64,000 nucleotides of DNA from Verrucomicrobiota bacterium (GTDB taxonomy: Bacteria; Verrucomicrobiota; Verrucomicrobiia; JABWAM01; JAHFSZ01): contig JAHFSZ010000002.1 in NCBI GenBank assembly GCA_023265515.1, positions 8,358 to 72,357 of the forward strand, given 5' to 3'. Of this stretch, positions 10,801 to 34,004 are shown piece by piece. Position numbers and translations under genes: made by a program. The notes under the pieces were generated by a model. It was not told the DNA's origin and searched no databases. It worked only from the letters and a program-made list of their open reading frames with translations. How positions within the stretch are numbered: the stretch's first letter is position 1; every line of letters begins with the position of its first letter.

Positions 10801-11109
10801 ATGACCATCATGGGAAACAAACCGAACAAGAAAGCCGGAGATACGGTCATCCAGGACTGCATCATCGTCAACAAGCTTGGCCTGCACGCCCGTCCGGCCG
10901 CCCTTTTTGTGAAGACTTCCAATCGCTTTGAATCCGATATCACTGTCGAAAAAGACGGTGAGCAGGTCAATGGCAAGAGCATCATGGGCCTGATGATGCT
11001 GGCCGCTGGCTGCGGCTCCAAGGTCCGCATCAAAGCTACAGGAGCTGACGCGAAGGAAGCGATTGGCGAGATTGGAAAATTGATTACCCGCAAGTTTGAT
11101 GAGGAATAG
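10801..11109 (+). CDS. ptsH: phosphocarrier protein HPr
   Basis: ~100 aa with GLHARPA around the phosphorylatable His and an adjacent Ser-region motif; follows hprK. Confidence 0.85.
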   Translation: MTIMGNKPNKKAGDTVIQDCIIVNKLGLHARPAALFVKTSNRFESDITVEKDGEQVNGKSIMGLMMLAAGCGSKVRIKATGADAKEAIGEIGKLITRKFDEE

Positions 11110-11110
11110 T

Positions 11111-11146
11111 CCTCATTGGCCAAATGAGGCTATCCGGCCTGTTTTT
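11111..11146 (+). terminator. putative intrinsic terminator after ptsH (7-bp stem CCTCATT/AATGAGG, downstream T-run)
   Basis: Hairpin 11111-11129 directly after the ptsH stop, with a TTTTT run at 11142-11146. The spacing is not ideal. Confidence 0.4.
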
Positions 11147-11197
11147 CCTCCCCCTTCGCGAATTGACTTTGACCCCACTTAAAACTAGCGTTTTAGT

Positions 11198-11677
11198 GTG
11201 GATCACGAGACCAAAGAACGGCTTGAAACCTTCCTCACCCAGAAGGGACTAAGGCGCACCGCCCAACGCGCGGCCATCCTGGAGGCGGCCTTCGGCACCA
11301 CCGAACATTTCACCGCCGAAACCCTGCTCACCATGGCTCGGGACCGGGATCCCTCCGTCTCGCGCGCCACCGTCTACCGGACGCTGGCACTTCTGACCGA
11401 GACCGGCCTGCTCAAGGAGTTGGACCTGGGCAAGGACTTCAAATTTTACGACCCCAACTATTCCAAGCACCCAAACCACCATCACATCATCTGCAACGAC
11501 TGTGACAAGATCGTGGAGTTCGAGAGCAAGGACATCGAGCAGCTCGAAAGCGAGATTTCCCACAAGCTCGGCTTCACCATCGGCTCCCAGAAGATCGAAA
11601 TCCGCGGCAACTGCGAGGACCTGAAGAAGAAGGGCGTTTGCTCCAATCAAACCGGTTGTGAGAAGAAGAAGACTTGA
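11198..11677 (+). CDS. Fur-family metalloregulator (Fur/Zur/PerR type)
   Basis: Winged-helix N-terminal (RxTxQR...VYRTL), an HHH metal site, and CxxC plus C...C structural zinc cysteines; GTG start. Confidence 0.85.
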   Translation: MDHETKERLETFLTQKGLRRTAQRAAILEAAFGTTEHFTAETLLTMARDRDPSVSRATVYRTLALLTETGLLKELDLGKDFKFYDPNYSKHPNHHHIICNDCDKIVEFESKDIEQLESEISHKLGFTIGSQKIEIRGNCEDLKKKGVCSNQTGCEKKKT

Positions 11678-11704
11678 CCGAATTCGACGCCTATCGGCGC
11701 AAGA

Positions 11705-12175
11705 TCAGGTGAAGATTTTGCCGACTTCTTCGATGTCTTCCGCGTCGAACTGAAAGCCTGCCTCCTTGGAACGGGCGCGAAGCTTCGCCAGCAACTGGGC
11801 AAGCTGGCTGGTGGCGTTGACCGTGTAGAAACGGACCAGACCGACGGTCGTTTGTTCACCGAAGATCGTGATGAGGATGTTATTTTCGTCGATCGAGGTC
11901 ATGAAGATGTGCGCGTCCTTACCCTGATGATAGAGGGCGCTGAACTCGATCTCACCGATCCGCCGGGCAAGCTCCTTGGTCGCCGCGAACGAACCCGCCG
12001 CCAGCGCCGCCAGGATGGTGGTATCGGCAATGTTAAAGTCTCCTTGCTGGGAAATCACGGTACCGCCTTTGTCGATGACAACGGCGAGGTTCGCCTCCGA
12101 CTTCTGGAGGAAATCATTAAGAATCGCATCCAGCTGCTGGACGTCTTCCACCGACAATATTGGGATGGTCTCCAT
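11705..12175 (-). CDS. mglB: Roadblock/LC7-domain protein MglB (GTPase-activating partner of MglA)
   Basis: Roadblock fold sequence similar to myxobacterial MglB; lies directly downstream of mglA with a 12-nt gap. Confidence 0.8.
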   Translation of the reverse strand: METIPILSVEDVQQLDAILNDFLQKSEANLAVVIDKGGTVISQQGDFNIADTTILAALAAGSFAATKELARRIGEIEFSALYHQGKDAHIFMTSIDENNILITIFGEQTTVGLVRFYTVNATSQLAQLLAKLRARSKEAGFQFDAEDIEEVGKIFT

Positions 12176-12187
12176 GTTGCCTTCCCT

Positions 12188-12832
12188 TTACCTGACGGTC
12201 GACATCAGCACCGTCGTCTTCGATCGTTTGTCCGGTGAGTAGCTTTCCTTCGTGAATTTGTAAAGCAAGAGGCGCGAGATTGCGTTGAGCGTTGAAAAAA
12301 CATTTTCGCCCGTGGTCGCGCAGCCTTCGAACGACTGAACCTTCACCTTCCGGTTGTTCAAAAGGTATTCAAGGTAGTTGACTGGCGCGACATTGGGCAT
12401 GTCTCTCTTGTTATACTGCAGCACGTAAGGAATCTCATCAAGATTTATGTTCATCTTGGCCAGGTTCTCCTCCATGTTGCGAAAACTTTCGACGTTCTCC
12501 TCCATCTTGTCCCACTGCGAATCGGCGACAAAGACAATGCCATCGACACTGCGAAGAACCAGCTGGCGGGTCGCGTTGTAAATCACCTGGCCAGGAACCG
12601 TGTAAAGCTGGAACTTGGTCTTGAAGCCCTTGATGACAACAGCGTGCAGTGGAAGAAAATCAAAAAAAAGCGTCCGGTCGGCGGCCGTCGCCAGCGACAC
12701 CATGTCGCCACGGTTGTCAGGGGCGACCTGCGAGTGGATGTAGGTTAGGTTGGTGGTCTTGCCGCCGAGCGCGGGCCCATAGTAGACGATCTTGAATTGA
12801 ATTTCTTTATTGGCGTAATTGATGATTGACAT
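12188..12832 (-). CDS. mglA: Ras-like small GTPase MglA
   Basis: Near-colinear match to Myxococcus MglA: KIVYYGPxLxGKTTNL P-loop, RTLFFDFLPL switch region, FKTxFxLYTVPGQ and DGxVFVADSQ. Confidence 0.9.
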   Translation of the reverse strand: MSIINYANKEIQFKIVYYGPALGGKTTNLTYIHSQVAPDNRGDMVSLATAADRTLFFDFLPLHAVVIKGFKTKFQLYTVPGQVIYNATRQLVLRSVDGIVFVADSQWDKMEENVESFRNMEENLAKMNINLDEIPYVLQYNKRDMPNVAPVNYLEYLLNNRKVKVQSFEGCATTGENVFSTLNAISRLLLYKFTKESYSPDKRSKTTVLMSTVR

Positions 12833-12844
12833 AACTTTATCCGC

Positions 12845-14713
12845 TCATGCCGCGCTGAGATTCTGACGGCTCAGTTCTTCCGCCAAACGTTCGACTCGCT
12901 TGAAAAACCCGCGGTTGATCTTTTCGCCGGAATGCCATAACAGCAGAAACACACCTGGTGCCCGAAAGAAGCTCACGAGGCGTTTTTCCAAAAGGATGGT
13001 AACGCGCGAAACTTTACCAGCGCCGGCGGGCTCAATTCCACGTGCCAGATGCCGGAAAATCTGTGGGATAAACGCGCTGATCATCTGCTTATCGAATCCT
13101 TCGGGGGGTCTGCCTGCGAGCACAAGTCCATCCTCCGCCACCATCATCCCGGCGACAACTTCGAACTTGGCGATCGCGGTATCAATGATTTCCTGTACTT
13201 TTAAAGTACGCTGATCTGTCAAAGTCAGCAACCGATTAAGTGCACTGACGTTCACGGCCCCGGCGGGCTCGGGCATGCTGGACAGCCGCAGAAGGCTTTT
13301 CCGGCGGACGCCGACATCCTTCAGGTCCTGCAATGACAGGGTTTTCACGCGATCCCGCTGGTCGAGGATTTTCCGCGCGACTTGGAAGGACACGCCGTTC
13401 AATTCCGTGAATTCATGCGGGTGAAAGCGGTTCACCCGCTGCATCAGAACGGCTTCGTCAAAATTTTCGGCCGTTGGGCAGATTTCCAGGTCTTTTGGCT
13501 CCGGAGACCTTTGCTGCTCCGCGGGCACATCCGCGGCTTCCTCCGGTTTGATTTCGGCGGCCGCCGGTTGGGTCTTCGCAGTCGCCGCAACAGACGCCAC
13601 TCCCGCCCCCGACTTTTCTGTAAAGAGATTGGCAGGAATGCTCGAGTCATCCGGCAGCTTCACCTCCGGGGAGCCCTCAACCTTGATCATATCGGCGGGG
13701 ATTTGCGCAACGATCCGGTCCAGCGGCAGTACCACTTCGGCGGATTGGTTGACGGAATTGACCGCATTGACCATGTGCGCAGGGAAAAAAGGATGAAGCG
13801 CGGAATACTCAATCGCGATCCGGCCCGAGGCAAGCTTCGGCAACACAAGCTCGATCGGAAGCTCGATGACCTGTTCACCGGCCTCTTCGAGGCATTTCTG
13901 GCGCGGGATGGCGAGGAGATCTTCGGGCAGTCGCTTGAGAAGGCTTATCAGGAAAAGCCTCACACTGGTCACCGGGCCTGAAGGGGCTTCGAGCTGCTCC
14001 GCACCAGCAGGCGGTTCAACCTCAGCAGGAGAATCGACGCGCACGGAAAGTTTGGGCGGCTCAATCGGCGCCGGCACTCCCGCCTGCGGAGGCGGCTGGG
14101 GAATCTGCGGCTCAGGCCGTGGCGGTTCCAGGATTTTGATTTCAGCGGGTGTTCCACTCTTGCCTTCCGAAAACGGCGACTCGACAAAATTGGGATCGAT
14201 TTCCTGCCGGACCTGGCCCTCAACGATCAAAAGTTCCGGTGGAATACTCGCCACCACGTCCGGCAACGGCATTCGGATCGCTTCCTTTCTGTTGACGCCG
14301 GCCCGGGTGATCTCGCCACCGATTTGGTCCAGGATGAGCTCAAGCGGAACCGTAATCCGTCCGCTGGTGAGTTGCGGCAAAAGAACTCCCGCCTCGAAGG
14401 TGAATGTTTCAGGAATCTGCGCCACTGAGAGCTTGTTGGGATCGACCAGGTTACCGGGAAGGCTCTGGATGATCGGCGCCGCGGCAATTTGGATCGTCAC
14501 GCCGCTTGAACTTACGGCACTCCCCGGGGATCCCTGCGAAGCTGCGGAATCGCCGCCTGCAACATCCATTCCCTTGGGTCGGAAGACCTGCGTCTGGCTC
14601 ATTCGAAGCGCCTCGTGAGGATCGACCCCGGGCGGCAGAGGCTTCTTCTGCATCCCCGAAGGCCGGATGACCGGAATCGGCATCTTGGGTCGGGTTTTTG
14701 GAAAATCCGCCAT
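12845..14713 (-). CDS. Pro-rich multidomain protein: 3 internal ~35-aa repeats + ComEA-like helix-hairpin-helix + C-terminal Roadblock/LC7 domain
   Basis: Repeated (I/V)xLPxELxLPxLxSGRI motif at roughly residues 100, 290 and 330. HhH segment (FTELNGVSFQVARKIL...LQDLKDVGVRRK). The C-terminal ~110 aa aligns to the MglB-type roadblock fold (VVAGMMVAEDGLVLAG...RVTILLEKRLVSFF). No confident named orthologue recognised. Confidence 0.6.
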   Translation of the reverse strand: MADFPKTRPKMPIPVIRPSGMQKKPLPPGVDPHEALRMSQTQVFRPKGMDVAGGDSAASQGSPGSAVSSSGVTIQIAAAPIIQSLPGNLVDPNKLSVAQIPETFTFEAGVLLPQLTSGRITVPLELILDQIGGEITRAGVNRKEAIRMPLPDVVASIPPELLIVEGQVRQEIDPNFVESPFSEGKSGTPAEIKILEPPRPEPQIPQPPPQAGVPAPIEPPKLSVRVDSPAEVEPPAGAEQLEAPSGPVTSVRLFLISLLKRLPEDLLAIPRQKCLEEAGEQVIELPIELVLPKLASGRIAIEYSALHPFFPAHMVNAVNSVNQSAEVVLPLDRIVAQIPADMIKVEGSPEVKLPDDSSIPANLFTEKSGAGVASVAATAKTQPAAAEIKPEEAADVPAEQQRSPEPKDLEICPTAENFDEAVLMQRVNRFHPHEFTELNGVSFQVARKILDQRDRVKTLSLQDLKDVGVRRKSLLRLSSMPEPAGAVNVSALNRLLTLTDQRTLKVQEIIDTAIAKFEVVAGMMVAEDGLVLAGRPPEGFDKQMISAFIPQIFRHLARGIEPAGAGKVSRVTILLEKRLVSFFRAPGVFLLLWHSGEKINRGFFKRVERLAEELSRQNLSAA

Positions 14714-14725
14714 GACTCGACTCTT

Positions 14726-16429
14726 TTAGAGATCCACCATCGTGATTGCAAGAGCCTCTTCAAGCGTGCTGAGTCCCTGCCTGGCCTTGTCGATGGCGTT
14801 GCGCCTGAGTGTCTGCATCCCCTGCTGAAGCGCGACCGTTTTGATTTCATTGGCCGCCCTGCGCTGGATCACCAAGAGGCGGATCTCCTCCGTGATCGGG
14901 ATCAGCTCGAGCACGGCAAGGCGCCCGGAATAGCCTGTATTTTTGCAGTAATCGCAGCCATGGCCCTTGAAAAATTTGGTTGCCCTCGCCTCTTCCTGCG
15001 ACATTTCCAATTGCTCCATCAGCTTTTGCGGCACTTGGACGGGCTCCTTGCAGTGGCCGCAGATTCGCCGCATCAGGCGCTGTGCGCAAGAGAGCGTCAC
15101 ACTGGAGGCGACGAGGAACGGCTCGATTTGCATGTCGATGAGCCGCGTGATGGCGCCTGCCGCGTCGTTCGTATGCAGGGTGCTCAATACCTGGTGACCG
15201 GTGAGCGCCGCTTTGACGGCGATGTCCGCAGTCTCGTTGTCCCGGATCTCACCGATCATCACGATATCCGGATCCTGGCGAAGGATGGAACGCAGAGCAG
15301 CCGCGAAGTCGAAACCAATCTCAGGTTTTACCTGGACCTGGTTGATCCCGTTGAGCTGGTACTCGACCGGGTCCTCAACAGTGACAATGTTGTAGATCGG
15401 CTGATTGAGGTGGGCCAGCGCCGAATAAAGAGTCGTGGTCTTGCCCGATCCCGTGGGCCCGGTCACGAGCATCATTCCGTGAGGCGCCTCCAGCGCCTCC
15501 ATGAATTTTTTCAGGCTGTCCGAATCCATCCCGATCGAGTCGATGCTTGGCGCAAGCCCGCTCTTGTCGAGAAGACGAAGCACGACTTTTTCTCCATGGA
15601 TCGTTGGCAGGAACGAGGCGCGAAAATCGAATTCCTTGCCGGACATGCTGATGCGGATGCGGCCATCCTGAGGCAGACGACGTTCAGAGATGTTGAGTTT
15701 CGCCATGATCTTGAGGCGGGAAATGAGCGCATTTTGCATCGACTTGGGCGGCGGCGGATAGTCGTAGAGGCTGCCGTCGACGCGGTAGCGGAGCTTCAGA
15801 TACTTTTCATAGCATTCCATGTGGATGTCGCTTGCCTTGTCCTTCACCGAGGTGGCCAGCATCATATTGGCAATTTTGATGACCGGCGCCGCTTCGGGGT
15901 TCTCTTCGGAGACATCGGCTTTTTCATCCTCGGAGATCTCGATGCTTGTATCGTCGGCCTCCGCTTCGGCCAGGAGGTCCTGCATACCGGCGGCCGATGC
16001 CGCTTCCGCGATCGCCATGGCATCCTGAACCGCCTTTTCGGTCGAAATCATCGGAACAATTTCCATCCTGGTGATCTGTCTGAGTTCGTCGAGGGCCAGG
16101 ACATTGAGAGGATCGGCCATCGCCACGTAGAGCATGTTGCCGAGCCGCGCGATGGGGATCAGCTGGTGATTCTTGGCGATATCCTTGGGAACCAGATCGA
16201 GGAGTTCCTTTGAAATCTTCATCCGCGAAAGATTGACCGGCGGGGTGCCGAGGCAACGACCCATGCTGATCATCATGTCCTGTTCGGTGACGTATTTCTT
16301 GTCGAGAAGGAGTTTGAGAAGGCGTCCGCCCTGGGTCTTTTGGATTTCAAGAATCTCCTCGAGCTGTGAGCTCTCAAGGAGGCCATCCTCGATCAGGATA
16401 TCCGCAATTCTTTCACCGAATGGTTTCAT
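14726..16429 (-). CDS. PilB/GspE-family secretion/pilus assembly ATPase
   Basis: N-terminal T2SSE_N-like domain, Walker A GPTGSGKTT, Asp/His boxes and a tetracysteine motif CGHCK...CDYCKNTG. Confidence 0.9.
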   Translation of the reverse strand: MKPFGERIADILIEDGLLESSQLEEILEIQKTQGGRLLKLLLDKKYVTEQDMMISMGRCLGTPPVNLSRMKISKELLDLVPKDIAKNHQLIPIARLGNMLYVAMADPLNVLALDELRQITRMEIVPMISTEKAVQDAMAIAEAASAAGMQDLLAEAEADDTSIEISEDEKADVSEENPEAAPVIKIANMMLATSVKDKASDIHMECYEKYLKLRYRVDGSLYDYPPPPKSMQNALISRLKIMAKLNISERRLPQDGRIRISMSGKEFDFRASFLPTIHGEKVVLRLLDKSGLAPSIDSIGMDSDSLKKFMEALEAPHGMMLVTGPTGSGKTTTLYSALAHLNQPIYNIVTVEDPVEYQLNGINQVQVKPEIGFDFAAALRSILRQDPDIVMIGEIRDNETADIAVKAALTGHQVLSTLHTNDAAGAITRLIDMQIEPFLVASSVTLSCAQRLMRRICGHCKEPVQVPQKLMEQLEMSQEEARATKFFKGHGCDYCKNTGYSGRLAVLELIPITEEIRLLVIQRRAANEIKTVALQQGMQTLRRNAIDKARQGLSTLEEALAITMVDL

Positions 16430-17259
16430 GACAGGAGCCGAAACACGTCTTGTATCTTGAGCCGCAGGTCATTGGGGTGCGTGATGTACCACTGGACGTG
16501 GCACTGGGCGGCCGACTCGATCTGATGCCTGGCGTGACGGTCCATTGGGTTGACCGTCGCGGCGAAAATGGTGCGGCTGATCTTATCGAACGGAAGAACC
16601 ATCCGCGAAACGCAAAGCGCAGGATCCACCAGCTCGGCCCGCCGCGCATCCACGTCGTACGTATCCATCGGCATGAACGGAATCTTGGCGGTCTGTGATA
16701 GAAAGAGCAGCGTGTTTTCAATGGCGGAGATGCCGCGGTCCGCCAGCACTTCGATGACGGTCGGCGCAGGGGTGTTGGGGTGCGATTCTGCAATTCTGGA
16801 GGCAAAATCGCTCAGGATTGAGGAGCGGTTTTTCTCCGGGAAAAGACCGTGCTGGATCATGAAATCGATCAGGATTTCGTTCGGATTTTCCTCCTCGACA
16901 GCCTGCGTATCCACCGGGGCAGGCGCGGGCGCGGGCTGAACTTCGCCTACGGCGGCGTAGCCGGGCATCTTGCTTTCAAGTTCGCCGAGAGCTGCCAGGG
17001 CCTCCCCATCATCCGGTGAGCGTTGCAGGACGCCTTCATACTCGAGGATCGCAGAGGAGATTTGTCCCAGGCGGACGTAAATTTTGGCGATCTTCTTCGA
17101 GGCTTCAATGGCGTCTTTTTCCCGACCGAGCTTGGTGTAGGCCTCCTTAAGGATTTCCATCGACTGATAGTCGTCCGGATCCGCCGCGGTGATCACTTCA
17201 AACATCTGCACCGTCTCAAGAAGCTTGGGGTCTTCCTGGATTTTTTTGTGGGAAGCCAT
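16426..17259 (-). CDS. TPR-repeat protein with C-terminal GspE-N-terminal (T2SSE_N/MshEN-like) domain
   Basis: TPR-like helical repeats in the N-terminal half; the C-terminal ~110 aa resemble the N-terminal domain of GspE/MshE ATPases. Overlaps the ATPase gene by 4 nt; the start is probably M at 17259 rather than the track start at 17322. Confidence 0.6.
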   Translation of the reverse strand: MASHKKIQEDPKLLETVQMFEVITAADPDDYQSMEILKEAYTKLGREKDAIEASKKIAKIYVRLGQISSAILEYEGVLQRSPDDGEALAALGELESKMPGYAAVGEVQPAPAPAPVDTQAVEEENPNEILIDFMIQHGLFPEKNRSSILSDFASRIAESHPNTPAPTVIEVLADRGISAIENTLLFLSQTAKIPFMPMDTYDVDARRAELVDPALCVSRMVLPFDKISRTIFAATVNPMDRHARHQIESAAQCHVQWYITHPNDLRLKIQDVFRLLS

Positions 17260-17635
17260 GGAACCGACCTGGGAGCGCCTTGAGGCAACAGGCCGCCATG
17301 AAGTTCGCTCCGGCCGTTCCAATATGAGTTCATTTCAATCAATAGGCAAGGACAGTTTGAGCTTCCCGCCTGCGTAAGTCGTACAGAATCAACGAATAAG
17401 AAATTTGACTCATGGTGGCAGGTTTTTGGCAAAGCCCTGTTTTCGAGGTGCGAAAGCCGGGATCGATGAGGCCGCTTTCGTCATTCCCCCGCCCTGCCCG
17501 AATGCTCCGGAGGACATCCCGCCGAGGGCAACTCGCTCAAATCTGCATCCCCAAATAAGGGCCCCTTGGTTTCATCCAAGCAGGGGGGGCAAAAAGTTTC
17601 TTAACATCCCGGCGGAAGTCGATTAAGATACGAGC

Positions 17636-17782
17636 ATGAGATATCTCCTGATCTTCGTTCTCGCCGTTTCCGCACTCGGTTCGTTGACCGGTTGCGGCTA
17701 CAGCAAACTCTACAAGGATTACAACGACTATCAAGATCACGACGACGACAATACCATTCCCAAGAGCCGGCAGTCGCGTTAA
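17636..17782 (+). CDS. small (48 aa) putative lipoprotein, Asp/Tyr-rich
   Basis: Not in the ORF track. ATG at 17636; signal peptide with lipobox LTGC; low-complexity acidic tail. Sits in the 550-bp gap upstream of metH. Confidence 0.3.
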   Translation: MRYLLIFVLAVSALGSLTGCGYSKLYKDYNDYQDHDDDNTIPKSRQSR

Positions 17783-17874
17783 AAGGCCGTCTCCCGCCTG
17801 CTTTGTTCGCTTCCTTCTGTCACCAACGCTCTCCTCCGTGGGGGCGTGACTCTTAACACGCTCATTTCTATGGT

Positions 17875-20800
17875 ATGATGACACGCGAAGATAGAATCGA
17901 ACTGCTTCACGAACTGCCCCGCGAGCGCATTTTGTGCATCGATGGCGCGATGGGAACCGCCCTGCAAGCGCGTGATTTGACGGCGAAAGATTTCGGCGGT
18001 GGATCGTATGAAGGATGCAACGAGTACCTGGTCATCACGCGGCCCGATGTGATTCTCGACATCCACAATAAGTACCTCGAAGCAGGCGCCGACATCCTCG
18101 AAACGGACACCTTCGGAAGCACGGCGCTGGTCCTGGCCGAGTATGGCCTGGAGGACCGGGCTCATGAGATCACCAAGCGTGCCGCCGAGCTGGCCCGCAA
18201 GGCGGCCGATGCCTTTTCGACGTCGAAGAAGCCCCGTTTTGTGGCCGGTTCGATGGGCCCTACAACGAAGGCGATCTCGGTCACCGGGGGGGTGACCTTC
18301 GACCAGCTGATCCGCCAATTCAAGGAGCAGGCGCGAGGCCTGGTTGACGGAGGCGTCGATGTCCTCCTGCTCGAAACGGCGCAGGACACCCGCAATGTGA
18401 AGGCCGGTTTGATCGGCATCCAGGACCTCTTTCATGAGACAGGCATTTCCGTACCGGTCATGGTTTCCTGTACCATCGAGCCCATGGGCACGATGCTCGC
18501 TGGGCAAACGGCGGAGGCCTTCGAAGCTTCCGTCCGTCATGCTCCTTTGCTTTCTGTTGGCCTGAACTGCGCGACGGGCCCGGAATTCATGACCGACCAC
18601 ATGCGTTCGTTGCACGAGGTCGCCTGCACCTACGTCTCCTGCGTGCCCAATGCCGGCCTCCCCGATGAGGAAGGCCATTACCTGGAAAGTCCTGAAAGAC
18701 TGGCCGCTTCTCTCGAGCGATTCGCCAAAAACGGCTGGCTGAACTTCGTTGGCGGCTGCTGTGGCACGAACGAAAAGCACATCCGGGCCATTGCGCAGAT
18801 GATCGATGGAAAGAAACCGCGGGTTCCGAAAAAAAACCGCAAGACGGTTTTCACCGGCATCGACCTGGTCGAGGCAAACGAGGACAACCGTCCGCTGATC
18901 GTCGGCGAACGGACCAACGAGGTTGGTTCCCGCCTCTTCAAGCAACTGATCACCGACGAAAAATACGAGGAGGCCAGCGAGATTGCCCGCCGTCAGGTCA
19001 AGCATGGCGCACACATCATCGACATCAACCTGCAAAACGCCGACCGCGATGAGATTCGCGACATCGATGCCTTCTATGACAAAGTCACCCGCAAAATCAA
19101 AGCGCCTTTGATGATCGATACCACCAACCCGGCTTCCATCGAGCGCTCCCTCACCTACTGCCAGGGCAAATCGATCATCAATTCGATCAACCTCGAGGAT
19201 GGCGAGGAGAAGTTCGAGCAGGTATGCCCTCTCGCCCGAAAATACGGCGCCGCCCTGGTCGTCGGCTGCATCGACGAGGATAAACTTCAGGCCCAAGCCA
19301 TCACCCGCGAGCGCAAACTGCAAATCGCCGAGCGTTCCTACCGGCTGCTCACCGACAAATACGGCATACCCGAGGAGGACATCATCTTCGACCCGCTCGT
19401 CTTCCCATGCGGCACCGGCGATCAAAATTATGCCGGCAGCGCGGTCGAGACGATCGAAGGCATCCAGCTGATCAAGCGAAGGTTTCCGCGCTGCAAAATG
19501 GTCCTGGGGATCAGCAACATCTCGTTCGGCCTGCCGCAGGCTGGGCGTGAGGTTCTCAATTCCGTTTTTCTCTACCATTGCACGAAAGCCGGGCTCGACC
19601 TTGCGATCGTCAACGCCGAAAAAATCGAGCGCTTCGCAAGCCTCTCCGAGGAAGACCGGAAGGTTTCCGAAGACCTGCTCTGGAACCGCGGCGAAAAGCC
19701 GGTTGAAACTTTTACCGCCCAGTTTCGGCAGGCACGCAAGAGGGACAAGAAGCTCACCGATCTGCCGCTCGACCAGCGGCTGGCCAATTACATTATCGAG
19801 GGAACCAAGGACGGGCTCATCGATGACCTTCAGCTCAAGTTGAAGGAGGACCGGCCGCTCAACATCATCAACGGTCCACTGATGTCCGGCATGGCGGAAG
19901 TCGGCCGGCTGTTCAACGCCAACGAACTCATTGTCGCTGAAGTCCTGCAAAGCGCCGAAGCGATGAAGACGGCCGTATCCTTTCTTGAACAGTTCATGGA
20001 GAAGAACGAGACCGCGGCGCGGGGCAAAATCGTGCTTGCCACCGTGAAAGGGGATGTCCACGACATCGGCAAGAATCTCGTTGAAATCATTTTGCAGAAC
20101 AACGGCTACTCGGTCGTAAATCTCGGTATTAAGATCCCACCCGAGGAACTCATCAAAGCTTATCACGAACATCGGCCTGATGCGATTGGTTTGTCCGGGC
20201 TTCTCGTCAAGTCGGCCCAACAGATGGTCATCACCGCATCCGATCTGCGCAACGCTGGCATTCAGATTCCGCTTTTGGTCGGCGGCGCCGCCCTCTCCGA
20301 CCGTTTTACACGGACCAAGATCGCCCCTTCCTACAACTATGTTGTCTGCTACGCGAAGGACGCGATGGAGGGCCTTCGCCTGATGGATCAGCTCGGTGAT
20401 CCCAAGCTTCGGGACGAGTTGATCCGGCAGAGATCCGCAACCGAAATCGGCATGGAGTCTCGCGAAACCCGGCAACTTCCTCCTGAATCCGAACTGCGCA
20501 GCTCGCGCGTGCGGATCGACATCCCGATGCCGAAGCTCGGTGATGATATGATGCGCAAGAAGCGCACCGTCCCGGACCTCGATGAGATCTGGAGCTACAT
20601 CAACCCGCAAATGCTCTACGTCCGACACATGGGATTCAAAGCCAATTACGAAAAGGCCCTCGCCCAGCGCGATCCCAAGGCGCTCGAGCTCCAGTCGCTC
20701 ATGGACCAGGTCAAGGAAGAGTGCCGCGCCGGGTTGATGAAAATCCGGACTGTTTGGCAGTTCCTCGAGGCGGAGGCCGACGACAACAAAATCCATCTTT

Positions 20801-21336
20801 TCCAAAAGGGCGGCAAGAAACCCGCCCATACATTCCAATTCCGCCGCCAGCGCAAACCCGACGGACTCTGTCTGAGCGACTATGTCCTGTCGGCTAAGGG
20901 GGGCGAACGGGACCATATCGGCCTGTTCGTGGTTGGGGCGGGTTACGGTATTCGAGAACGATCCGAGGAGGCGAAGCACCAGGGCGAATACACGCGCTCC
21001 CATGGGCTCCAGGCGCTCGCGCTCGAAACAGCGGAAGCATGCGCCGAGTGGCTCCACCGCCGGATGCGTGAAGACTGGGGTTTCCCCGACCCGGCCGGCA
21101 TGACGATGATGGAACGATTTCAGGCGCGCTATCGGGGCAAACGATATTCATTTGGCTACCCAGCCTGCCCGAACCTCGAAGACCAGGCCGGCATTTGGAA
21201 ACTGCTCATGCCAGATGAGATTGGCATCCAACTGACCGAAGGATTCATGATGGAACCCGAAGCAAGCGTGTCGGCGTTGGTTTTTCATCATCCCGACGCC
21301 ATTTACTTTTCGGTCGAGAGCGATGAGCGGCAATAG
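17875..21336 (+). CDS. metH: cobalamin-dependent methionine synthase
   Basis: Hcy-binding, pterin-binding and B12-binding (DVHDIGKN) domains plus the AdoMet reactivation domain, colinear over 1153 aa. Confidence 0.95.
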   Translation: MMTREDRIELLHELPRERILCIDGAMGTALQARDLTAKDFGGGSYEGCNEYLVITRPDVILDIHNKYLEAGADILETDTFGSTALVLAEYGLEDRAHEITKRAAELARKAADAFSTSKKPRFVAGSMGPTTKAISVTGGVTFDQLIRQFKEQARGLVDGGVDVLLLETAQDTRNVKAGLIGIQDLFHETGISVPVMVSCTIEPMGTMLAGQTAEAFEASVRHAPLLSVGLNCATGPEFMTDHMRSLHEVACTYVSCVPNAGLPDEEGHYLESPERLAASLERFAKNGWLNFVGGCCGTNEKHIRAIAQMIDGKKPRVPKKNRKTVFTGIDLVEANEDNRPLIVGERTNEVGSRLFKQLITDEKYEEASEIARRQVKHGAHIIDINLQNADRDEIRDIDAFYDKVTRKIKAPLMIDTTNPASIERSLTYCQGKSIINSINLEDGEEKFEQVCPLARKYGAALVVGCIDEDKLQAQAITRERKLQIAERSYRLLTDKYGIPEEDIIFDPLVFPCGTGDQNYAGSAVETIEGIQLIKRRFPRCKMVLGISNISFGLPQAGREVLNSVFLYHCTKAGLDLAIVNAEKIERFASLSEEDRKVSEDLLWNRGEKPVETFTAQFRQARKRDKKLTDLPLDQRLANYIIEGTKDGLIDDLQLKLKEDRPLNIINGPLMSGMAEVGRLFNANELIVAEVLQSAEAMKTAVSFLEQFMEKNETAARGKIVLATVKGDVHDIGKNLVEIILQNNGYSVVNLGIKIPPEELIKAYHEHRPDAIGLSGLLVKSAQQMVITASDLRNAGIQIPLLVGGAALSDRFTRTKIAPSYNYVVCYAKDAMEGLRLMDQLGDPKLRDELIRQRSATEIGMESRETRQLPPESELRSSRVRIDIPMPKLGDDMMRKKRTVPDLDEIWSYINPQMLYVRHMGFKANYEKALAQRDPKALELQSLMDQVKEECRAGLMKIRTVWQFLEAEADDNKIHLFQKGGKKPAHTFQFRRQRKPDGLCLSDYVLSAKGGERDHIGLFVVGAGYGIRERSEEAKHQGEYTRSHGLQALALETAEACAEWLHRRMREDWGFPDPAGMTMMERFQARYRGKRYSFGYPACPNLEDQAGIWKLLMPDEIGIQLTEGFMMEPEASVSALVFHHPDAIYFSVESDERQ

Positions 21337-31404: not shown

Positions 31405-32094
31405 TCAATGGCGGCAGCTCATGGTCAACCGGAACCCGGGTCTCTGTTTGATCCGAAGCTGGTCGATGCCGGACCATTCCCGATAATTGAGCGCGTCGGC
31501 CTCGCGGAATCCCCGCCTTACGGAGAGTTTAGCATCGTGAAACAGCACGGGATCAAAACTCAGTGCCGTGAGCAACGCGACGACGCAGTAGGCGATCGGG
31601 TGCCGGTAAAGGTCATTGACGAGAAAGCCACGGCGGCAATTCTGGAACATTTTCTCAAGAAGCTCGACAATCCTTTCGTCCGGCAAATGGTGGAAAAACA
31701 TCGAGGCGGTGATGTAGTCGAATAACCCGAGCTGCTCGAGCTGGAACGCCGAATGGCACAGATAACGGATGTGAGGATGAGCGGAGTGCTTTTGGGCGTA
31801 CTCGATCAGGCGGGGATTCGAGTCGATCGCGGTGATCTGGACCGTCCTTTTTCGTTTTTTTGCCCATCTTTGGATGGCCAATGGGATATCGCCTGAACCG
31901 GTCCCAAGATCGAGCACCGTGAATTCGCGCCCAAGTCCAGGAGTGTGATCGAAGCAATCGAGGACCGCGTCCGCACCACCCAGCCATCGGTTCACCCATC
32001 GCATGAACCGGAGCGAGGGAATGATCTTCTCGATCCCGACGTTTTGCTCGTCGAGCACTTCGCGTTGCAGGGATCGTTGGTCCATCCAGCCCAT
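31405..32094 (-). CDS. class I SAM-dependent methyltransferase
   Basis: Motif I VLDLGTGSGD and a post-I acidic residue. The likely start is M at 32094, overlapping the upstream gene end. Confidence 0.65.
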   Translation of the reverse strand: MGWMDQRSLQREVLDEQNVGIEKIIPSLRFMRWVNRWLGGADAVLDCFDHTPGLGREFTVLDLGTGSGDIPLAIQRWAKKRKRTVQITAIDSNPRLIEYAQKHSAHPHIRYLCHSAFQLEQLGLFDYITASMFFHHLPDERIVELLEKMFQNCRRGFLVNDLYRHPIAYCVVALLTALSFDPVLFHDAKLSVRRGFREADALNYREWSGIDQLRIKQRPGFRLTMSCRH

Positions 32095-34004
32095 CACGGT
32101 TTCAGCAGAAGGAGTTCGTCGCCGGCAAGGGTCAGGACAGGGCAATAGAGTCCTCTTCTTTGCCGGGTCCACCAGGTTCCCTCGCTGCGGAGGGTTGAGA
32201 GATCAGTGAAGTGATAATCATAGATGACGGCACGAAGGTAGCGTGGAGGCCCCTCCGGAAACGGATTTTTTCCCAGCAGGGCGAGCACGTCCGGCGAGCC
32301 CTGGAGCAGCTTCAGGCAAAATCGGCCGAACCATGGGTTTTGCCGGACAGAGCCGAGCGCGGCGAACCACATCTGCCAATCGAGGCGCGGCTGATGAGGC
32401 TGAACCCAGAGAGGATGCCGTTTGAGGTCGCCCGGCTTGTATTTGAACTCGTACGGCAGCCAGTCGACGCCGTTATTGCTCCCCTCGATGATGATTTCTA
32501 GCCGCGCGGTGGTCATGACCCGGAAGAGGCCGTAACCATTGACGGAGCGGAAAGGAACGAACAGAGCGTACGTTCTTTCGACCCAGTTCGGCCAGGCGAA
32601 GCGGACGCGGAACGCTCCGATCAAAGCGAGGTTCGACATGAAAAGAATGACTATGGAAAGCGGGACGAGAACCCAACGCGGCCAACGCAGGCCGGTATTG
32701 CCCGTTCCGCCAAAAGTCCACCGACTCACGACCTCGGCGAGCTTCTCCCGCCAGGAACCTGGCCAGGCGGAGTCATCCAGCAGGCAAAGGCAAAGGAGCG
32801 CGGCGAGCATATTGAAGAAACAGTAATTTCCCGTCAGGAAAATCAGCATTTGAAGGAAGAGGAATGCTCCGCATGCGAAGGCGCGGAGACGCCTCGGCCC
32901 GAAAATCAAGAACGGAACGATCAGCTCGATCGCAAACATGGCGCCGGCGGAAAACTGCTGACACCATCCGGGAAAATGATGCGCAAACCATCCAATCCAT
33001 GTCGGCAGTGGCTGGGTTTCATAGTGGTAGGTCAGCGCGGTGAAATGATGCCACGTCGGATCTCCACTGGAGAGCTTGACGACTCCGGACATGAAGATGA
33101 GCCGGAAAACCAGCCAGCGGTAGAGCCACACCACGGCCAGGCTGGGAGCAGCCTCGTGTCGAAAGTTGGGAAGCCATTGGAGGGGTGCAAAAAAGATCGC
33201 AAGAAAGCCGGTTTCCAAAAGGAGGATGTCCCATTGAAAACTCAGGAACTCCTGCCCGACGACGGCGAGCGACAGATAGAACGCCCAGAGCAGAAACAAA
33301 ACCAACACGGGCGCAAACCCCAGAATCAGGAGCAGGGAAAGAAGCGTCCCACCAAAACAGAGGAAGTGCAGGAAGTTGTCGCTCGCGTCAAACCAACAGA
33401 GCGTCGGAAGGTACTGCACGGCCTCGTACCCGAAACGCCCCTTGACTGCCTCGATCAATTCCGAGGCCGGTAGAATGCCGTTGCGGCCGACAAGCCCGCT
33501 GATCTGGGTCCAGAGCGAAAGGAACGCGATCAGGTAAATCACACCGAGGCCTCTGAGGAAAAACCACCGGGTGAGGTTATATTCAGGGGGCTCATAGCGC
33601 CGCCCCCAGAGAAAGCGGGAAACCGACGAGAACAAGCCGCGGTTCCGCGCCACGCGACGGTAGATGAATTCGGTGGCGCGGGCAAAGCCCGGAGCTCTTT
33701 TATAGAGCCAAAGCGGAGCTCTTGCGATCCAGGCGGGAGTCGTCGCCAGCGTCCGAAACACCGCCTCGGCGGCGCTGAAGACCCGGCCGTCCGGCAGGCA
33801 GAGCTTCACCGCCTTTTCGAACGCCTCCTTCGGCACACCGGCAAATGGTATCTCGAGCGACTGGTAAGGGACATAGTCCACTTTTTCGCGCGTCCAATGT
33901 TTCCACCGCGCGATCCAGTAGCCGCAGAATCCGCAATCGCCGTCGTAAACCAGAAGGGGGTTTTTCACATTCATAAGATCCGGCAAACCGACGCATCTTA
34001 TCAA
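32094..34004 (-). CDS. fusion of DCC-type thiol-disulfide oxidoreductase (DUF393) and lipase-maturation-factor (LMF) membrane domain
   Basis: N-terminal VYDGDCGFCGYWI (DCC family), then a polytopic membrane region and an LMF-like C-terminal domain (RLDWQMWFAALG...NPFP). Confidence 0.7.
   Translation of the reverse strand: MIRCVGLPDLMNVKNPLLVYDGDCGFCGYWIARWKHWTREKVDYVPYQSLEIPFAGVPKEAFEKAVKLCLPDGRVFSAAEAVFRTLATTPAWIARAPLWLYKRAPGFARATEFIYRRVARNRGLFSSVSRFLWGRRYEPPEYNLTRWFFLRGLGVIYLIAFLSLWTQISGLVGRNGILPASELIEAVKGRFGYEAVQYLPTLCWFDASDNFLHFLCFGGTLLSLLLILGFAPVLVLFLLWAFYLSLAVVGQEFLSFQWDILLLETGFLAIFFAPLQWLPNFRHEAAPSLAVVWLYRWLVFRLIFMSGVVKLSSGDPTWHHFTALTYHYETQPLPTWIGWFAHHFPGWCQQFSAGAMFAIELIVPFLIFGPRRLRAFACGAFLFLQMLIFLTGNYCFFNMLAALLCLCLLDDSAWPGSWREKLAEVVSRWTFGGTGNTGLRWPRWVLVPLSIVILFMSNLALIGAFRVRFAWPNWVERTYALFVPFRSVNGYGLFRVMTTARLEIIIEGSNNGVDWLPYEFKYKPGDLKRHPLWVQPHQPRLDWQMWFAALGSVRQNPWFGRFCLKLLQGSPDVLALLGKNPFPEGPPRYLRAVIYDYHFTDLSTLRSEGTWWTRQRRGLYCPVLTLAGDELLLLKP

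What the first reader, a model, noticed from the sequence alone, without database searches (positions are those of the whole stretch)
11705..17322. Five-gene operon coupling an MglA/MglB polarity GTPase pair to a PilB/GspE-type ATPase via an undescribed giant Roadblock-domain protein and a TPR/GspE-N-domain protein
On the minus strand, TPR+T2SSE_N protein -> PilB/GspE ATPase -> 622-aa repeat/HhH/Roadblock protein -> MglA -> MglB are packed with 4-nt overlaps or 12-nt gaps, so one transcript is likely. The MglA sequence is an unmistakable orthologue of the Myxococcus polarity switch, and MglB is its Roadblock GAP. No pilM/N/O/P/Q, pilC or pilT genes are present here, so this is not a standard type IV pilus locus with mglAB appended. 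The arrangement looks like a self-contained small-GTPase-controlled ATPase module. The extra Roadblock-domain giant protein and the GspE-N-type (potentially cyclic-di-GMP binding, MshEN-like) domain are candidate adaptor and input components.
Basis: partly seen in the sequence, partly recalled or inferred. Interest (0 to 1): 0.8.

Follow-up and report, generated by a model that had tools for sequence, protein, structure and literature searches.

The report
MglA/MglB switch operon wired to PilB
A five-gene operon, conserved across Verrucomicrobiota, puts the MglA/MglB polarity GTPase pair next to a type IV pilus-type motor ATPase and two unstudied adaptor-like proteins, so it looks like a compact, co-encoded version of a pathway known so far only from scattered Myxococcus genes.

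Summary
Five minus-strand genes (11705-17259) are joined by a 4-nt overlap and three 12-nt gaps, between opposite-strand housekeeping genes. They encode:
- a TPR + MshEN/T2SSE_N protein;
- a PilB-type ATPase (PDB PilB E 4e-165);
- a 622-aa protein;
- a Group-1 MglA (E 3e-67; R53, T78 and Q82 kept);
- MglB (E 2e-19).

The 622-aa protein has no Pfam hit of its own. Family profiles show:
- a C-terminal Roadblock domain (PDB 7f8f, E 1e-9; 21 of 30 relatives hit PF03259);
- a ComEA-type (HhH)2 domain (E 5e-19);

The same gene order recurs in all 32 Verrucomicrobiota genome loci found and in further metagenome loci, although the 622-aa protein has drifted to about 25% identity.

It splits into two modules that also occur apart: adaptor+PilB, and 622-aa-like protein+MglA+MglB. 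No pilC or pilMNOPQ lies nearby. One relative has a PilT-like gene, others have PATAN-domain genes.

The c-di-GMP-type motif sits in PilB's own N-terminus, not in the TPR protein.

Most likely function (inferred): GTPase-gated recruitment or activation of PilB. This is a new variant of a known kind, and I found no paper describing it.

The parts
17299..17362 (-). Conserved upstream block, putative promoter (possible -35 TTGCCT at 17344-17349, 17-nt spacer, -10 CATATT at 17321-17326)
   Evidence: This block is nearly invariant between the window and relative L001, while the surrounding intergenic DNA has diverged (sequence). The hexamer assignment is my own reading. The consensus scan did not flag it.
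16426..17259 (-). g1: 277-aa TPR + MshEN/T2SSE_N-domain protein (candidate adaptor to PilB). TPR about 16978-17103, MshEN-like domain about 16441-16683
   Evidence: Pfam MshEN 5.1e-11 and TPR_14 5.5e-05. It aligns to PilB model TIGR02538 positions 28-135. It overlaps g2 by 4 nt. It lies immediately upstream of PilB in every related locus, including loci without MglA/B. The family has 3132 hits at E<1e-5; the top 120 are about 280 aa, and those that carry a name are called hypothetical or TPR protein.
14726..16429 (-). g2: 567-aa PilB-type extension ATPase. N-terminal MshEN c-di-GMP-type motif at aa 7-52 (16274-16411)
   Evidence: T2SSE 1.6e-135. TIGR02538 PilB 649.6 bits (cutoff 675.65) over the full length; GspE 605.6 bits (cutoff 630.25). 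Best solved relatives are Geobacter PilB 4e-165 and M. xanthus PilB 1.7e-155, with GspE at 7e-121. The N-terminal motif RIADxLIxDGLLxxxQLxExxxxQ-KxQGG-RLLKLLL is conserved in all orthologues.
12845..14713 (-). g3: 622-aa multidomain protein (candidate scaffold or regulator of the GTPase pair)
   Evidence: No Pfam hit of its own. Only 8 close homologues in the word-indexed search. 372 hits at E<=0.001 in the exhaustive profile search. Always found between PilB and MglA. No hydrophobic segment, so it is predicted to be cytoplasmic.
14222..14527 (-). g3 repeat domain, copy 1 (aa 63-164)
   Evidence: Matches the HMM of copy 2 at 1.6e-05. pLDDT about 80 in the full-length model.
13679..13993 (-). 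g3 repeat domain, copy 2 (aa 241-345): four strand+helix units, uncharacterised fold
13262..13468 (-). g3 ComEA-type (HhH)2 domain (aa 416-484). The hairpin glycines are partly degenerate in this copy
   Evidence: Family profile A7 hits ComEA 8dss at 5.3e-19, 2duy at 1.5e-14 and EEPD1 at 1.2e-30. Precomputed HHH_3 on distant members. The window copy reads NGVS and VGV where the family has GVGP and PGIG.
12848..13261 (-). g3 C-terminal Roadblock/LC7 domain (aa 485-622), the most conserved part of g3
   Evidence: Family profile A2 hits Robl_LC7 structures 7f8f at 1.1e-09, 7f8m at 7e-07 and dynein roadblock at 1e-04. 21 of 30 family members hit PF03259 individually, best 8.8e-10; the window copy itself does not. 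Predicted secondary structure is alpha-beta-beta-alpha-beta-beta-beta-alpha. Fold matches are weak (E>=0.15, prob up to 0.85) but go to Ragulator, MglC and Asgard Roadblocks.
12188..12832 (-). g4: MglA, Group-1 type small GTPase (214 aa) with a roughly 20-aa C-terminal tail
   Evidence: 3.4e-67 to T. thermophilus MglA and 7e-67 to M. xanthus MglA. P-loop GPALGGKTT, R53-T54 and T78-V-P-G-Q82 were read directly from the sequence. These are the Group 1 criteria of PMC4316618. Median identity to the 32 distant loci is 73%.
11705..12175 (-). g5: MglB, Roadblock-type GAP partner (156 aa)
   Evidence: Robl_LC7 5.9e-17. NF052242 MglB 66 bits, below the cutoff of 200. M. xanthus MglB structures 2.2e-19 and T. 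thermophilus MglB 6e-11.

Best explanation
This is a conserved Verrucomicrobiota operon in which a Group-1 MglA GTPase and its GAP MglB control a PilB-type type IV pilus extension ATPase through two co-encoded cytoplasmic proteins.

Shown:
- The five genes form one tight unit.
- Their order has been kept over deep divergence.
- MglA keeps the residues required for MglB-stimulated GTP hydrolysis.
- The ATPase is closest to T4aP PilB and carries a conserved MshEN-type N-terminus.
- g1 is always glued to PilB.
- g3-like proteins are always next to MglA/MglB.

Inferred mechanism:
- MglA-GTP binds an effector. The best candidate is the TPR part of g1, by analogy with the TPR protein SgmX of Myxococcus.
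- The PilB-N-terminal-like domain of g1 then docks onto PilB, or onto the PilB docking site of the pilus base. PilB is thereby recruited or licensed only where MglA is GTP-bound.
- MglB switches the signal off.
- g3 uses its Roadblock domain to bind MglB or MglA, as the Roadblock protein MglC does in Myxococcus. Its repeat domains and its (HhH)2 domain would place or scaffold the GTPase module, possibly against DNA or the pilus motor.
- c-di-GMP may act as a second input directly on PilB's N-terminus.

The pilus machine itself would be encoded elsewhere in the genome.
For: - Operon anatomy.
- Protein identities.
- Synteny g1>g2>g3>g4>g5, same strand, in all 32 Verrucomicrobiota genome loci. 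All five genes are seen in 27 loci (25 with g1 and PilB near full length); the other five loci lack only upstream or downstream genes at contig ends. The order also holds in metagenome loci whose g3 scores only about 50 bits.
- Unequal drift inside an unchanged order (median identity MglA 73%, PilB 57%, MglB 46%, g1 36%, g3 about 25%) argues for selection on the arrangement.
- Module logic: g1+PilB occurs without the rest. g3-like+MglA+MglB occurs without PilB. A repeat-only protein sits near a g1-like+PilB pair.
- Pilus link in relatives: a PilT-like 363-aa ATPase and a PATAN-kinase gene lie directly upstream of the five genes. PATAN response regulators are reported to bind PilB in cyanobacteria (bioRxiv 10.1101/2021.06.11.447907, abstract seen).
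- Precedent: MglA-GTP binds the TPR protein SgmX, which is needed for polar PilB localisation, and MglB blocks this (PMC7519303).
- All five proteins lack hydrophobic segments.
Against: - No interaction was tested. Every protein-protein step is inferred from domain content, adjacency and analogy.
- g1 has only about one to three TPRs and was not shown to be related to SgmX.
- Pairwise similarity between g1's domain and PilB's own N-terminus is insignificant (E 0.063).
- The Roadblock domain of g3 is not MglB-like (hhalign E 0.33; no MglB or MglC among the profile hits).
- No pilC, pilM-Q or pilin genes lie within 64 kb here or within about 10 kb in relatives. The target machine is therefore unidentified.
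- g2 falls just under the NCBIfam PilB cutoff (649.6 against 675.65).
- In many distant loci the nearest envelope-related neighbours are TadE/TadG-like pseudopilin genes, not T4aP genes.
Confidence: 0.55

Rival explanations
1. The GTPase logic is the same, but the ATPase drives a different fibre machine, such as a type II secretion-like or Tad-like pseudopilus, rather than a motility pilus. The module would then gate secretion or adhesion.
For: g2 scores nearly as well on GspE (605.6 bits, cutoff 630.25) as on PilB, and passes neither equivalog cutoff. In a large share of the distant loci a convergent TadE-TadE-TadG(VWA) triplet lies directly downstream of mglB: 17 TadE, 13 Tad and 9 VWA hits among 150 flank ORFs. 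No T4aP genes lie nearby.
Against: The full-length architecture and the best solved relatives are PilB: 4e-165 over residues 6-566, against 7e-121 for GspE over 104-563. Tad systems use a different ATPase clade, TadA/CpaF (my own knowledge). The TadE/G genes are on the opposite strand, are absent from the window and from several lineages, and travel with housekeeping neighbours such as a GHMP kinase and TrmB. That pattern suggests clade-level synteny. A PilT-like gene is present in one relative.
Confidence: 0.17
2. The roles of the two adaptors are swapped. g3 is the MglA effector that reaches PilB through its repeat domains. g1 is a PilB-N-domain mimic that inhibits or chaperones PilB independently of MglA.
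For: g1+PilB exists without MglA/B, so g1 does not need the GTPase. A protein made only of g3-type repeats lies near another g1-like+PilB pair. g3 sits physically between pilB and mglA in every locus.
Against: g3-like proteins that carry the repeat domain also occur with MglA/B where no PilB is nearby. TPR proteins are the documented MglA-GTP effectors (PMC7519303; PMC3983030, title and abstract).
Confidence: 0.15
3. The cluster is a DNA-uptake (competence) device. PilB powers a competence pilus, and the ComEA-like (HhH)2 domain of g3 handles incoming DNA.
For: The family profile of the HhH region hits ComEA strongly, 5e-19. PilB-type ATPases power competence pili in other bacteria (my own knowledge).
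Against: g3 has no signal peptide or membrane segment and is fused to a cytoplasmic regulator-type Roadblock domain, whereas ComEA acts outside the cytoplasm. The hairpin glycines are degenerate in the window's copy. No comEC or other competence genes are nearby.
Confidence: 0.06
4. The adjacency is accidental: unrelated genes that happen to be packed together.
For: None beyond the general fact that compact genomes pack unrelated genes together.
Against: Identical order and strand in more than 35 loci with unrelated flanks, at 25-73% protein identity.
Confidence: 0.02

Closest known systems
Myxococcus xanthus MglA/MglB - SgmX - PilB pathway (with FrzS and SopA)
   Same: A Group-1 MglA with an intrinsic Arg finger, an MglB GAP, a TPR-containing candidate effector, and a T4aP PilB as the output. 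In Myxococcus, MglA-GTP binds SgmX and SgmX is required for polar PilB localisation (PMC7519303; PMC11580455).
   Different: In Myxococcus the genes are scattered. SgmX is a large multi-TPR protein with no PilB-like domain, and no direct SgmX-PilB contact has been detected. Here all parts sit in one operon. The TPR protein is small and carries a PilB-N-terminal-type domain. A third protein (repeat + HhH + Roadblock) is present that has no Myxococcus counterpart I could identify.
MglC and RomY, accessory partners of MglB in M. xanthus
   Same: MglC is a second Roadblock-domain protein working beside MglB (PMC4719450). RomY forms a bipartite GAP complex with MglB (PMC9481161). I saw only the titles and abstracts of both. 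The Roadblock domain of g3 could play a comparable accessory role.
   Different: MglC is a small single-domain protein. g3 is 622 aa with extra domains, and its Roadblock profile does not retrieve MglC or MglB. MglC appears only as an insignificant fold match (E 0.36).
MshE / PilB MshEN c-di-GMP-binding N-terminal domain
   Same: The first 52 residues of g2 fit the tandem 24-residue MshEN motif (consensus recalled from memory). They score 37.9 bits on NF053729, whose cutoff is 38, and are conserved in all orthologues.
   Different: The score is borderline, and the second half-motif is degenerate (Gly3, Gly10 and Gln24 are replaced). Binding was not tested. The MshEN-like domain of g1 lacks the motif residues.
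PATAN-domain regulators linked to MglA/MglB and to PilB
   Same: PATAN genes were noted near some mglA/mglB genes (PMC4316618). PATAN response regulators are reported to bind the pilus motor in Synechocystis (bioRxiv 10.1101/2021.06.11.447907). Relatives of this operon carry REC-PATAN-kinase or FHA-PATAN genes alongside it.
   Different: No PATAN gene is present in this 64-kb window.
Actinobacterial conservon (CvnA-D)
   Same: An operon-encoded MglA-family GTPase plus a Roadblock protein plus further fixed partners (PMC4316618).
   Different: The conservon uses Group 2 GTPases, a histidine kinase partner and no secretion-type ATPase. The partners are unrelated.
Bdellovibrio MglA with the TPR protein Bd2492
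   Same: MglA working with a TPR protein in pilus-dependent behaviour (PMC3983030, abstract seen; the Bd2492 detail is from my own knowledge).
   Different: In Bdellovibrio there is no MglB and no operon with pilB.

Membership tests
MglA family, Group 1 (Wuichet & Sogaard-Andersen 2014) | Small single-domain GTPase with high similarity to characterised MglA | tested here: met
   214 aa. 3.4e-67 to T. thermophilus MglA and 7e-67 to M. xanthus MglA over residues 1-195.
MglA family, Group 1 (Wuichet & Sogaard-Andersen 2014) | Intrinsic arginine finger next to the G2 threonine, and G3 motif TVPGQ | tested here: met
   R53-T54 and T78-V-P-G-Q82, read from the translation and seen aligned. The criteria come from PMC4316618.
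MglA family, Group 1 (Wuichet & Sogaard-Andersen 2014) | Coupled to an mglB gene (within four genes) | tested here: met
   mglB starts 12 nt after the mglA stop codon.
MglA family, Group 1 (Wuichet & Sogaard-Andersen 2014) | MglB-stimulated GTP hydrolysis | not testable with these tools
   Needs biochemistry.
MglB (Roadblock/LC7 GAP) | Roadblock/LC7 domain and similarity to solved MglB | tested here: met
   PF03259 61.6 bits against a cutoff of 23. 2.2e-19 to M. xanthus MglB. The NCBIfam Thermus-type equivalog NF052242 scores 66 bits, below its cutoff of 200.
Type IVa pilus extension ATPase PilB | T2SSE ATPase core with an N-terminal MshEN/T2SSE_N region over the full length | tested here: met
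   PF00437 451.9 bits and PF05157 65.2 bits. Full-length match to Geobacter and Myxococcus PilB. Walker A GPTGSGKTT and the CxxC...CxxC motif were read directly from the sequence.
Type IVa pilus extension ATPase PilB | Passes the curated equivalog cutoff TIGR02538 | tested here: not met
   649.6 bits against a cutoff of 675.65. GspE TIGR02533 scores 605.6 against 630.25. The protein is PilB-like but is not assigned by the curated threshold.
Type IVa pilus extension ATPase PilB | The genome encodes the cognate machine (pilC, pilM-Q, pilins, pilT) | tested here: inconclusive
   None in the 64-kb window or in the flanks of relatives. A PilT-like gene lies upstream in one relative. The rest of the genome was not available.
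MshEN c-di-GMP-binding domain | Tandem RLGxxLLxxGLLxxxxLxxxLxxQ motifs (consensus recalled from memory) or a pass on NF053729 | tested here: inconclusive
   g2: NF053729 37.9 bits against a cutoff of 38. The first motif fits except G3>A and the second is half degenerate. It is conserved in orthologues. g1: the domain passes PF05157 (42.8 against 23.1), but the motif positions R1, G10 and Q24 are not kept.
Roadblock/LC7 superfamily (g3 C-terminus) | Significant match to PF03259 or to solved Roadblock proteins | tested here: met
   Met at family level: the profile of 30 C-termini hits 7f8f at 1.1e-09, and 21 of 30 members hit PF03259. Not met by the window sequence alone. The predicted secondary-structure order fits. 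The 3-D model of this part has low confidence.
ComEA-type (HhH)2 domain, HHH_3 (g3 middle) | Significant profile match to ComEA or HHH_3 | tested here: met
   The family profile hits 8dss at 5.3e-19 and 2duy at 1.5e-14. The window copy alone has no Pfam hit and its hairpins are degenerate. DNA binding was not tested.
SgmX-like MglA effector (g1) | TPR protein that binds MglA-GTP and promotes PilB recruitment | not testable with these tools
   Only the TPR content was checked: TPR_14 23.9 bits against a cutoff of 23.5. Homology to SgmX was not tested, and binding needs an experiment or a multimer model.

The most novel reading that the evidence does not exclude
The 622-aa protein family is an unrecognised third core partner of bacterial MglA/MglB switches. 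It is found beside mglA-mglB both with and without pilB. It is built from a domain of new fold (1-3 copies), a ComEA-type DNA-binding module and a divergent Roadblock domain. It could act as the missing exchange factor, co-GAP or positional anchor, for example tethering the switch to the nucleoid. The small TPR+PilB-N-domain protein could be a direct physical bridge from MglA-GTP to the PilB motor. That link has not been found in Myxococcus, where no direct SgmX-PilB contact was detected.
Probability: 0.3. Interest if true: 0.8.

Novelty: new variant of a known kind. Interest (0 to 1): 0.62.

Why it matters
How the MglA polarity GTPase actually reaches the pilus motor is still open in Myxococcus. 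SgmX and SopA are required for polar PilB, but no direct contact with PilB has been detected (PMC11580455).

This operon offers a minimal, co-encoded set of five soluble proteins in which each candidate link is short and testable in vitro. The set is conserved across a whole phylum that has no motility model.

It also extends Group-1 MglA to Verrucomicrobiota, which a 2014 survey listed only under Group 5.

It defines two protein families that are currently annotated as hypothetical. One of them contains a confidently predicted domain with no match among solved structures.

Tried and rejected
- Pfam and NCBIfam on the 622-aa protein itself returned nothing.
- The word-indexed homologue search with a 43-sequence alignment returned the same 8 close proteins, so one capped search was wasted.
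It worked with the narrower A4.
- The full-length AF2 model has low confidence in the C-terminus, and its Foldseek hits were insignificant.
- The afdb50 fold library was not available.
- hhalign of the g3 Roadblock profile against the cognate MglB alignment found no significant relation.
- BLASTP of g1's C-terminal domain against PilB's N-terminus was insignificant, so g1 is not a recent duplicate.
- The Rfam scan of 11000-18000 for a leader riboswitch, such as a c-di-GMP riboswitch, found nothing at E<=1.
- The consensus promoter and terminator scan was no better than shuffles.
- The context of one 1342-aa repeat-only protein was uninformative because the contig was short.
- The organism could not be named. 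The exact proteins are in an NCBI contig of 75,412 bp, but the look-up gave no taxon. Verrucomicrobiota is inferred from the relatives.

Full report
**1. Observation**

- g1, 16426-17322 as a TTG ORF
- g2, 14726-16429
- g3, 12845-14713
- g4, 12188-12832
- g5, 11705-12175

g1 and g2 overlap by 4 nt. The other three junctions are 12-nt gaps. The unit is bracketed by opposite-strand genes. On one side Fur (11198-11677) is convergent. On the other, a small lipoprotein-like ORF (from 17636) and metH (17875-21336) are divergent.

The true g1 start is most likely the ATG at 17259, giving 277 aa. That is where orthologues and the public gene call begin. A 64-nt block at 17299-17362 is almost invariant against a relative whose proteins are about 70% identical, while the rest of the intergenic DNA has diverged. 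I read this block as the promoter. That is an inference, because the generic promoter scan did not flag it. No Rfam element lies in the leader.

**2. The four recognisable proteins**

- g4 is an MglA orthologue. It scores 3.4e-67 against T. thermophilus MglA and 7e-67 against M. xanthus MglA. It has the P-loop, the R53-T54 arginine finger and the TVPGQ G3 motif that define Group 1 MglA (criteria from PMC4316618).
- g5 is MglB. It scores 5.9e-17 on Robl_LC7 and 2.2e-19 against M. xanthus MglB.
- g2 is a PilB-type ATPase.
  - It scores 1.6e-135 on T2SSE. The PilB equivalog model covers its full length at 649.6 bits, just under the cutoff of 675.65. GspE scores 605.6 bits over a shorter span.
  - Its best solved relatives are Geobacter PilB (4e-165) and M. 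xanthus PilB (1.7e-155), ahead of GspE (7e-121).
  - Residues 7-52 fit the MshEN c-di-GMP motif (NF053729 37.9 bits, cutoff 38). This stretch is conserved in all orthologues.
- g1 has a short TPR region and a C-terminal MshEN/T2SSE_N domain (5.1e-11) that aligns to positions 28-135 of the PilB model. Its motif positions for c-di-GMP binding are not kept.

None of the five proteins has a membrane-like segment.

**3. The 622-aa protein (g3)**

Its own sequence hits no Pfam or NCBIfam family. The word-indexed search found only 8 close homologues. An exhaustive profile search found 372 relatives at E<=0.001. From these I built domain alignments.

- C-terminus (aa 485-622). This is a Roadblock/LC7 domain.
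  - The profile hits solved Robl_LC7 proteins at 1.1e-09 and 7e-07, and dynein roadblock at 1e-04.
  - 21 of 30 members hit PF03259 individually.
  - The predicted secondary structure has the Roadblock order.
  - It is not MglB-like.
- aa 416-484. This is a ComEA-type (HhH)2 domain: ComEA 5.3e-19, EEPD1 1.2e-30. The window's copy has degenerate hairpins.
- aa 63-164 and aa 241-345. These are two copies of one domain (copy 2's HMM finds copy 1 at 1.6e-05).
  - It models confidently (pLDDT 86.3) as four strand-helix units.
- The linkers are proline- and acid-rich and are predicted to be disordered.

Of the 157 proteins held from the two searches, 106 have both the repeat and the Roadblock domain, 23 have repeats only (up to three copies) and 24 have the Roadblock only.

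**4. Conservation of the arrangement**

A scan of one genome per species returned 32 loci. All were labelled Verrucomicrobiota, Verrucomicrobiia or Verrucomicrobiae except one 3-kb contig. Their g3 C-termini are 30-39% identical to the window's.

I searched the window's five proteins against six-frame ORFs of these loci. Every locus shows g1>g2>g3>g4>g5 on one strand. Genes are missing only where the contig ends.

Median identity to the window is 73% for MglA, 57% for PilB, 46% for MglB, 36% for g1 and about 25% for g3.

Metagenome loci whose g3 scores only about 50 bits keep the same five genes, with unrelated flanks.

Flanks of the 32 loci hold housekeeping genes, and none of pilC, pilM/N/O or a secretin appears among the 25 most frequent families (of 81 found) in 150 flank ORFs. 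The window itself holds only housekeeping genes outside the cluster and no pilin-type leader motif.

**5. Modularity and hints to the target**

- The g1+PilB pair occurs alone in L042.
- It also occurs downstream of a repeat-only protein in L043.
- g3-like proteins occur divergently next to mglA-mglB and PATAN-domain genes with no PilB in view, in L036 and L037.
- So the operon joins an [adaptor-PilB] module to a [g3-MglA-MglB] module.
- In the lineages whose PilB and MglB are closest to the window's, a REC-PATAN-kinase-FGE gene precedes the five genes.
- One of those loci also has a 363-aa PilT-like ATPase and a GYF-domain gene.
- PATAN genes near mglA/mglB were noted before (PMC4316618). PATAN regulators are reported to bind the pilus motor in a cyanobacterium.
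- These neighbours favour an ordinary type IV pilus as the controlled machine.
- Against that, many loci of the more distant clade have a convergent TadE-TadE-TadG(VWA) triplet right after mglB. This keeps a Tad or pseudopilus reading alive.

**6. Mechanism**

Shown:
- co-encoding and deep conservation of the gene order;
- intact catalytic residues in MglA;
- a PilB-type motor with a conserved MshEN N-terminus;
- invariant g1-PilB and g3-MglA/B adjacency.

Inferred by analogy with Myxococcus, where MglA-GTP binds the TPR protein SgmX, SgmX is needed for polar PilB and MglB prevents this (PMC7519303):
- MglA-GTP engages g1's TPR.
- g1's PilB-N-like domain couples to PilB or to its docking site.
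- MglB resets the switch.
- g3's Roadblock domain binds MglB or MglA, as accessory Roadblock proteins do in Myxococcus (PMC4719450 and PMC9481161).
- g3's repeats and (HhH)2 domain position the module.
- c-di-GMP may act directly on PilB.

I put 0.55 on this overall picture. The rivals are:
- a different fibre machine (0.17);
- swapped adaptor roles (0.15);
- a competence device (0.06);
- chance adjacency (0.02).

**7. Comparison and novelty**

The closest known system is the Myxococcus MglA/MglB-SgmX-PilB pathway. The logic is the same, but the embodiment differs:
- one operon rather than scattered genes;
- a small TPR protein with a PilB-N-type domain;
- an extra multidomain Roadblock protein containing an unmatched fold.

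Four full-text searches found no paper describing this operon or either protein family. The main survey of prokaryotic small GTPases reported no conserved PilB neighbourhood for Group 1, and listed Verrucomicrobia only under Group 5.

Public annotations call g1 and g3 hypothetical or TPR proteins. In some JGI records MglA is called 'signal recognition particle receptor subunit beta'.

I rate this a new variant of a known kind, with interest 0.62. It is not categorically new, because GTPase control of PilB is established. It is a clean, phylum-wide, testable minimal system that bears on an open question: how MglA reaches the motor, given that no direct SgmX-PilB contact has been detected.

**8. 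Limits**

- No protein interaction, transcript or phenotype was tested.
- The rest of the genome was not available, and the organism is inferred only from relatives.
- The loci were retrieved through g3 or g1. The survey therefore shows that these genes always travel with the others. It does not show how many Verrucomicrobiota lack the operon.

Noticed in passing
window 12191-12247 (-), MglA aa 196-214; also the MglA orthologues in L002-L033: Every MglA in this operon family carries a 20-40-aa C-terminal tail beyond the canonical G domain. It ends ...ALSGIAAAAARR in the distant clade and ...RSKTTVLMSTVR in the window. M. xanthus and T. thermophilus MglA lack such a tail. It could be a targeting or partner-binding tail, like the hypervariable tails of eukaryotic small GTPases.
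   Followed up: partly
L013:11876-14317 (-), and likewise L010, L018, L019, L023, L032 and others: A convergent triplet of TadE-like, TadE-like and TadG-like (some with VWA) genes lies directly downstream of mglB in many of the distant Verrucomicrobiota loci. Housekeeping genes (TrmB-like methyltransferase, Na/Pi cotransporter) follow. No full tad locus is in view, and the triplet is absent from the window.
   Followed up: partly
L039:1953-5449 and L040:304-3800; also the P0173 locus (no DNA held): In the lineages closest to the window, the five genes are preceded on the same strand by a 386-409-aa unknown protein and a 777-aa REC/PATAN-Ser/Thr kinase-FGE-sulfatase protein. One locus also has a 363-aa PilT-like ATPase and a GYF_2-domain protein. 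These may be further members of the system.
   Followed up: partly
window 17636-17782 (+): A roughly 48-aa ORF with a lipoprotein-like signal (MRYLLIFVLAVSALGSLTGC...) lies divergently upstream of the operon. A gene of 51 aa is called at the same place in two relatives.
   Followed up: no
L009:6176-8022, L020:6024-7736, L017:5085-6016, L022:3534-4461, L032:8459-10284, L044:629-2445: In several loci pilB, g1 or g3 appears split over two or three frames or genes. Some of these come from assemblies with MFD-type isolate names. The splits could be sequencing frameshifts or real decay. I did not examine them.
   Followed up: no
window 12188-12832 (annotation in public sources): JGI names members of this MglA cluster 'signal recognition particle receptor subunit beta'. 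One g3 homologue (P0008) is named 'predicted regulator of Ras-like GTPase activity (Roadblock/LC7/MglB family)'. The first name is misleading and the second agrees with the profile result.
   Followed up: yes
window 14528-14713 (-), g3 aa 1-62: The N-terminus of g3 carries a short conserved basic, proline-rich peptide: KTRPKMPIPVIRPSG here and MKLPFFRSSKP in the distant clade. It precedes the first folded domain and is the kind of linear motif a TPR domain could bind. This is pure speculation.
   Followed up: no
window 32094-34004 (-): A 636-aa protein combines a DCC1-like thiol-disulfide oxidoreductase domain with lipase maturation factor LMF1 and LMF1_C domains (E 2e-58 and 3e-51).
   Followed up: no
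window 54203-57622 (-): A 1139-aa protein with LysM and cytochrome c domains sits inside a respiratory gene cluster (cytochrome b/Rieske, COX1/2/3, CtaA, SCO1). The domain combination is unusual.
   Followed up: no
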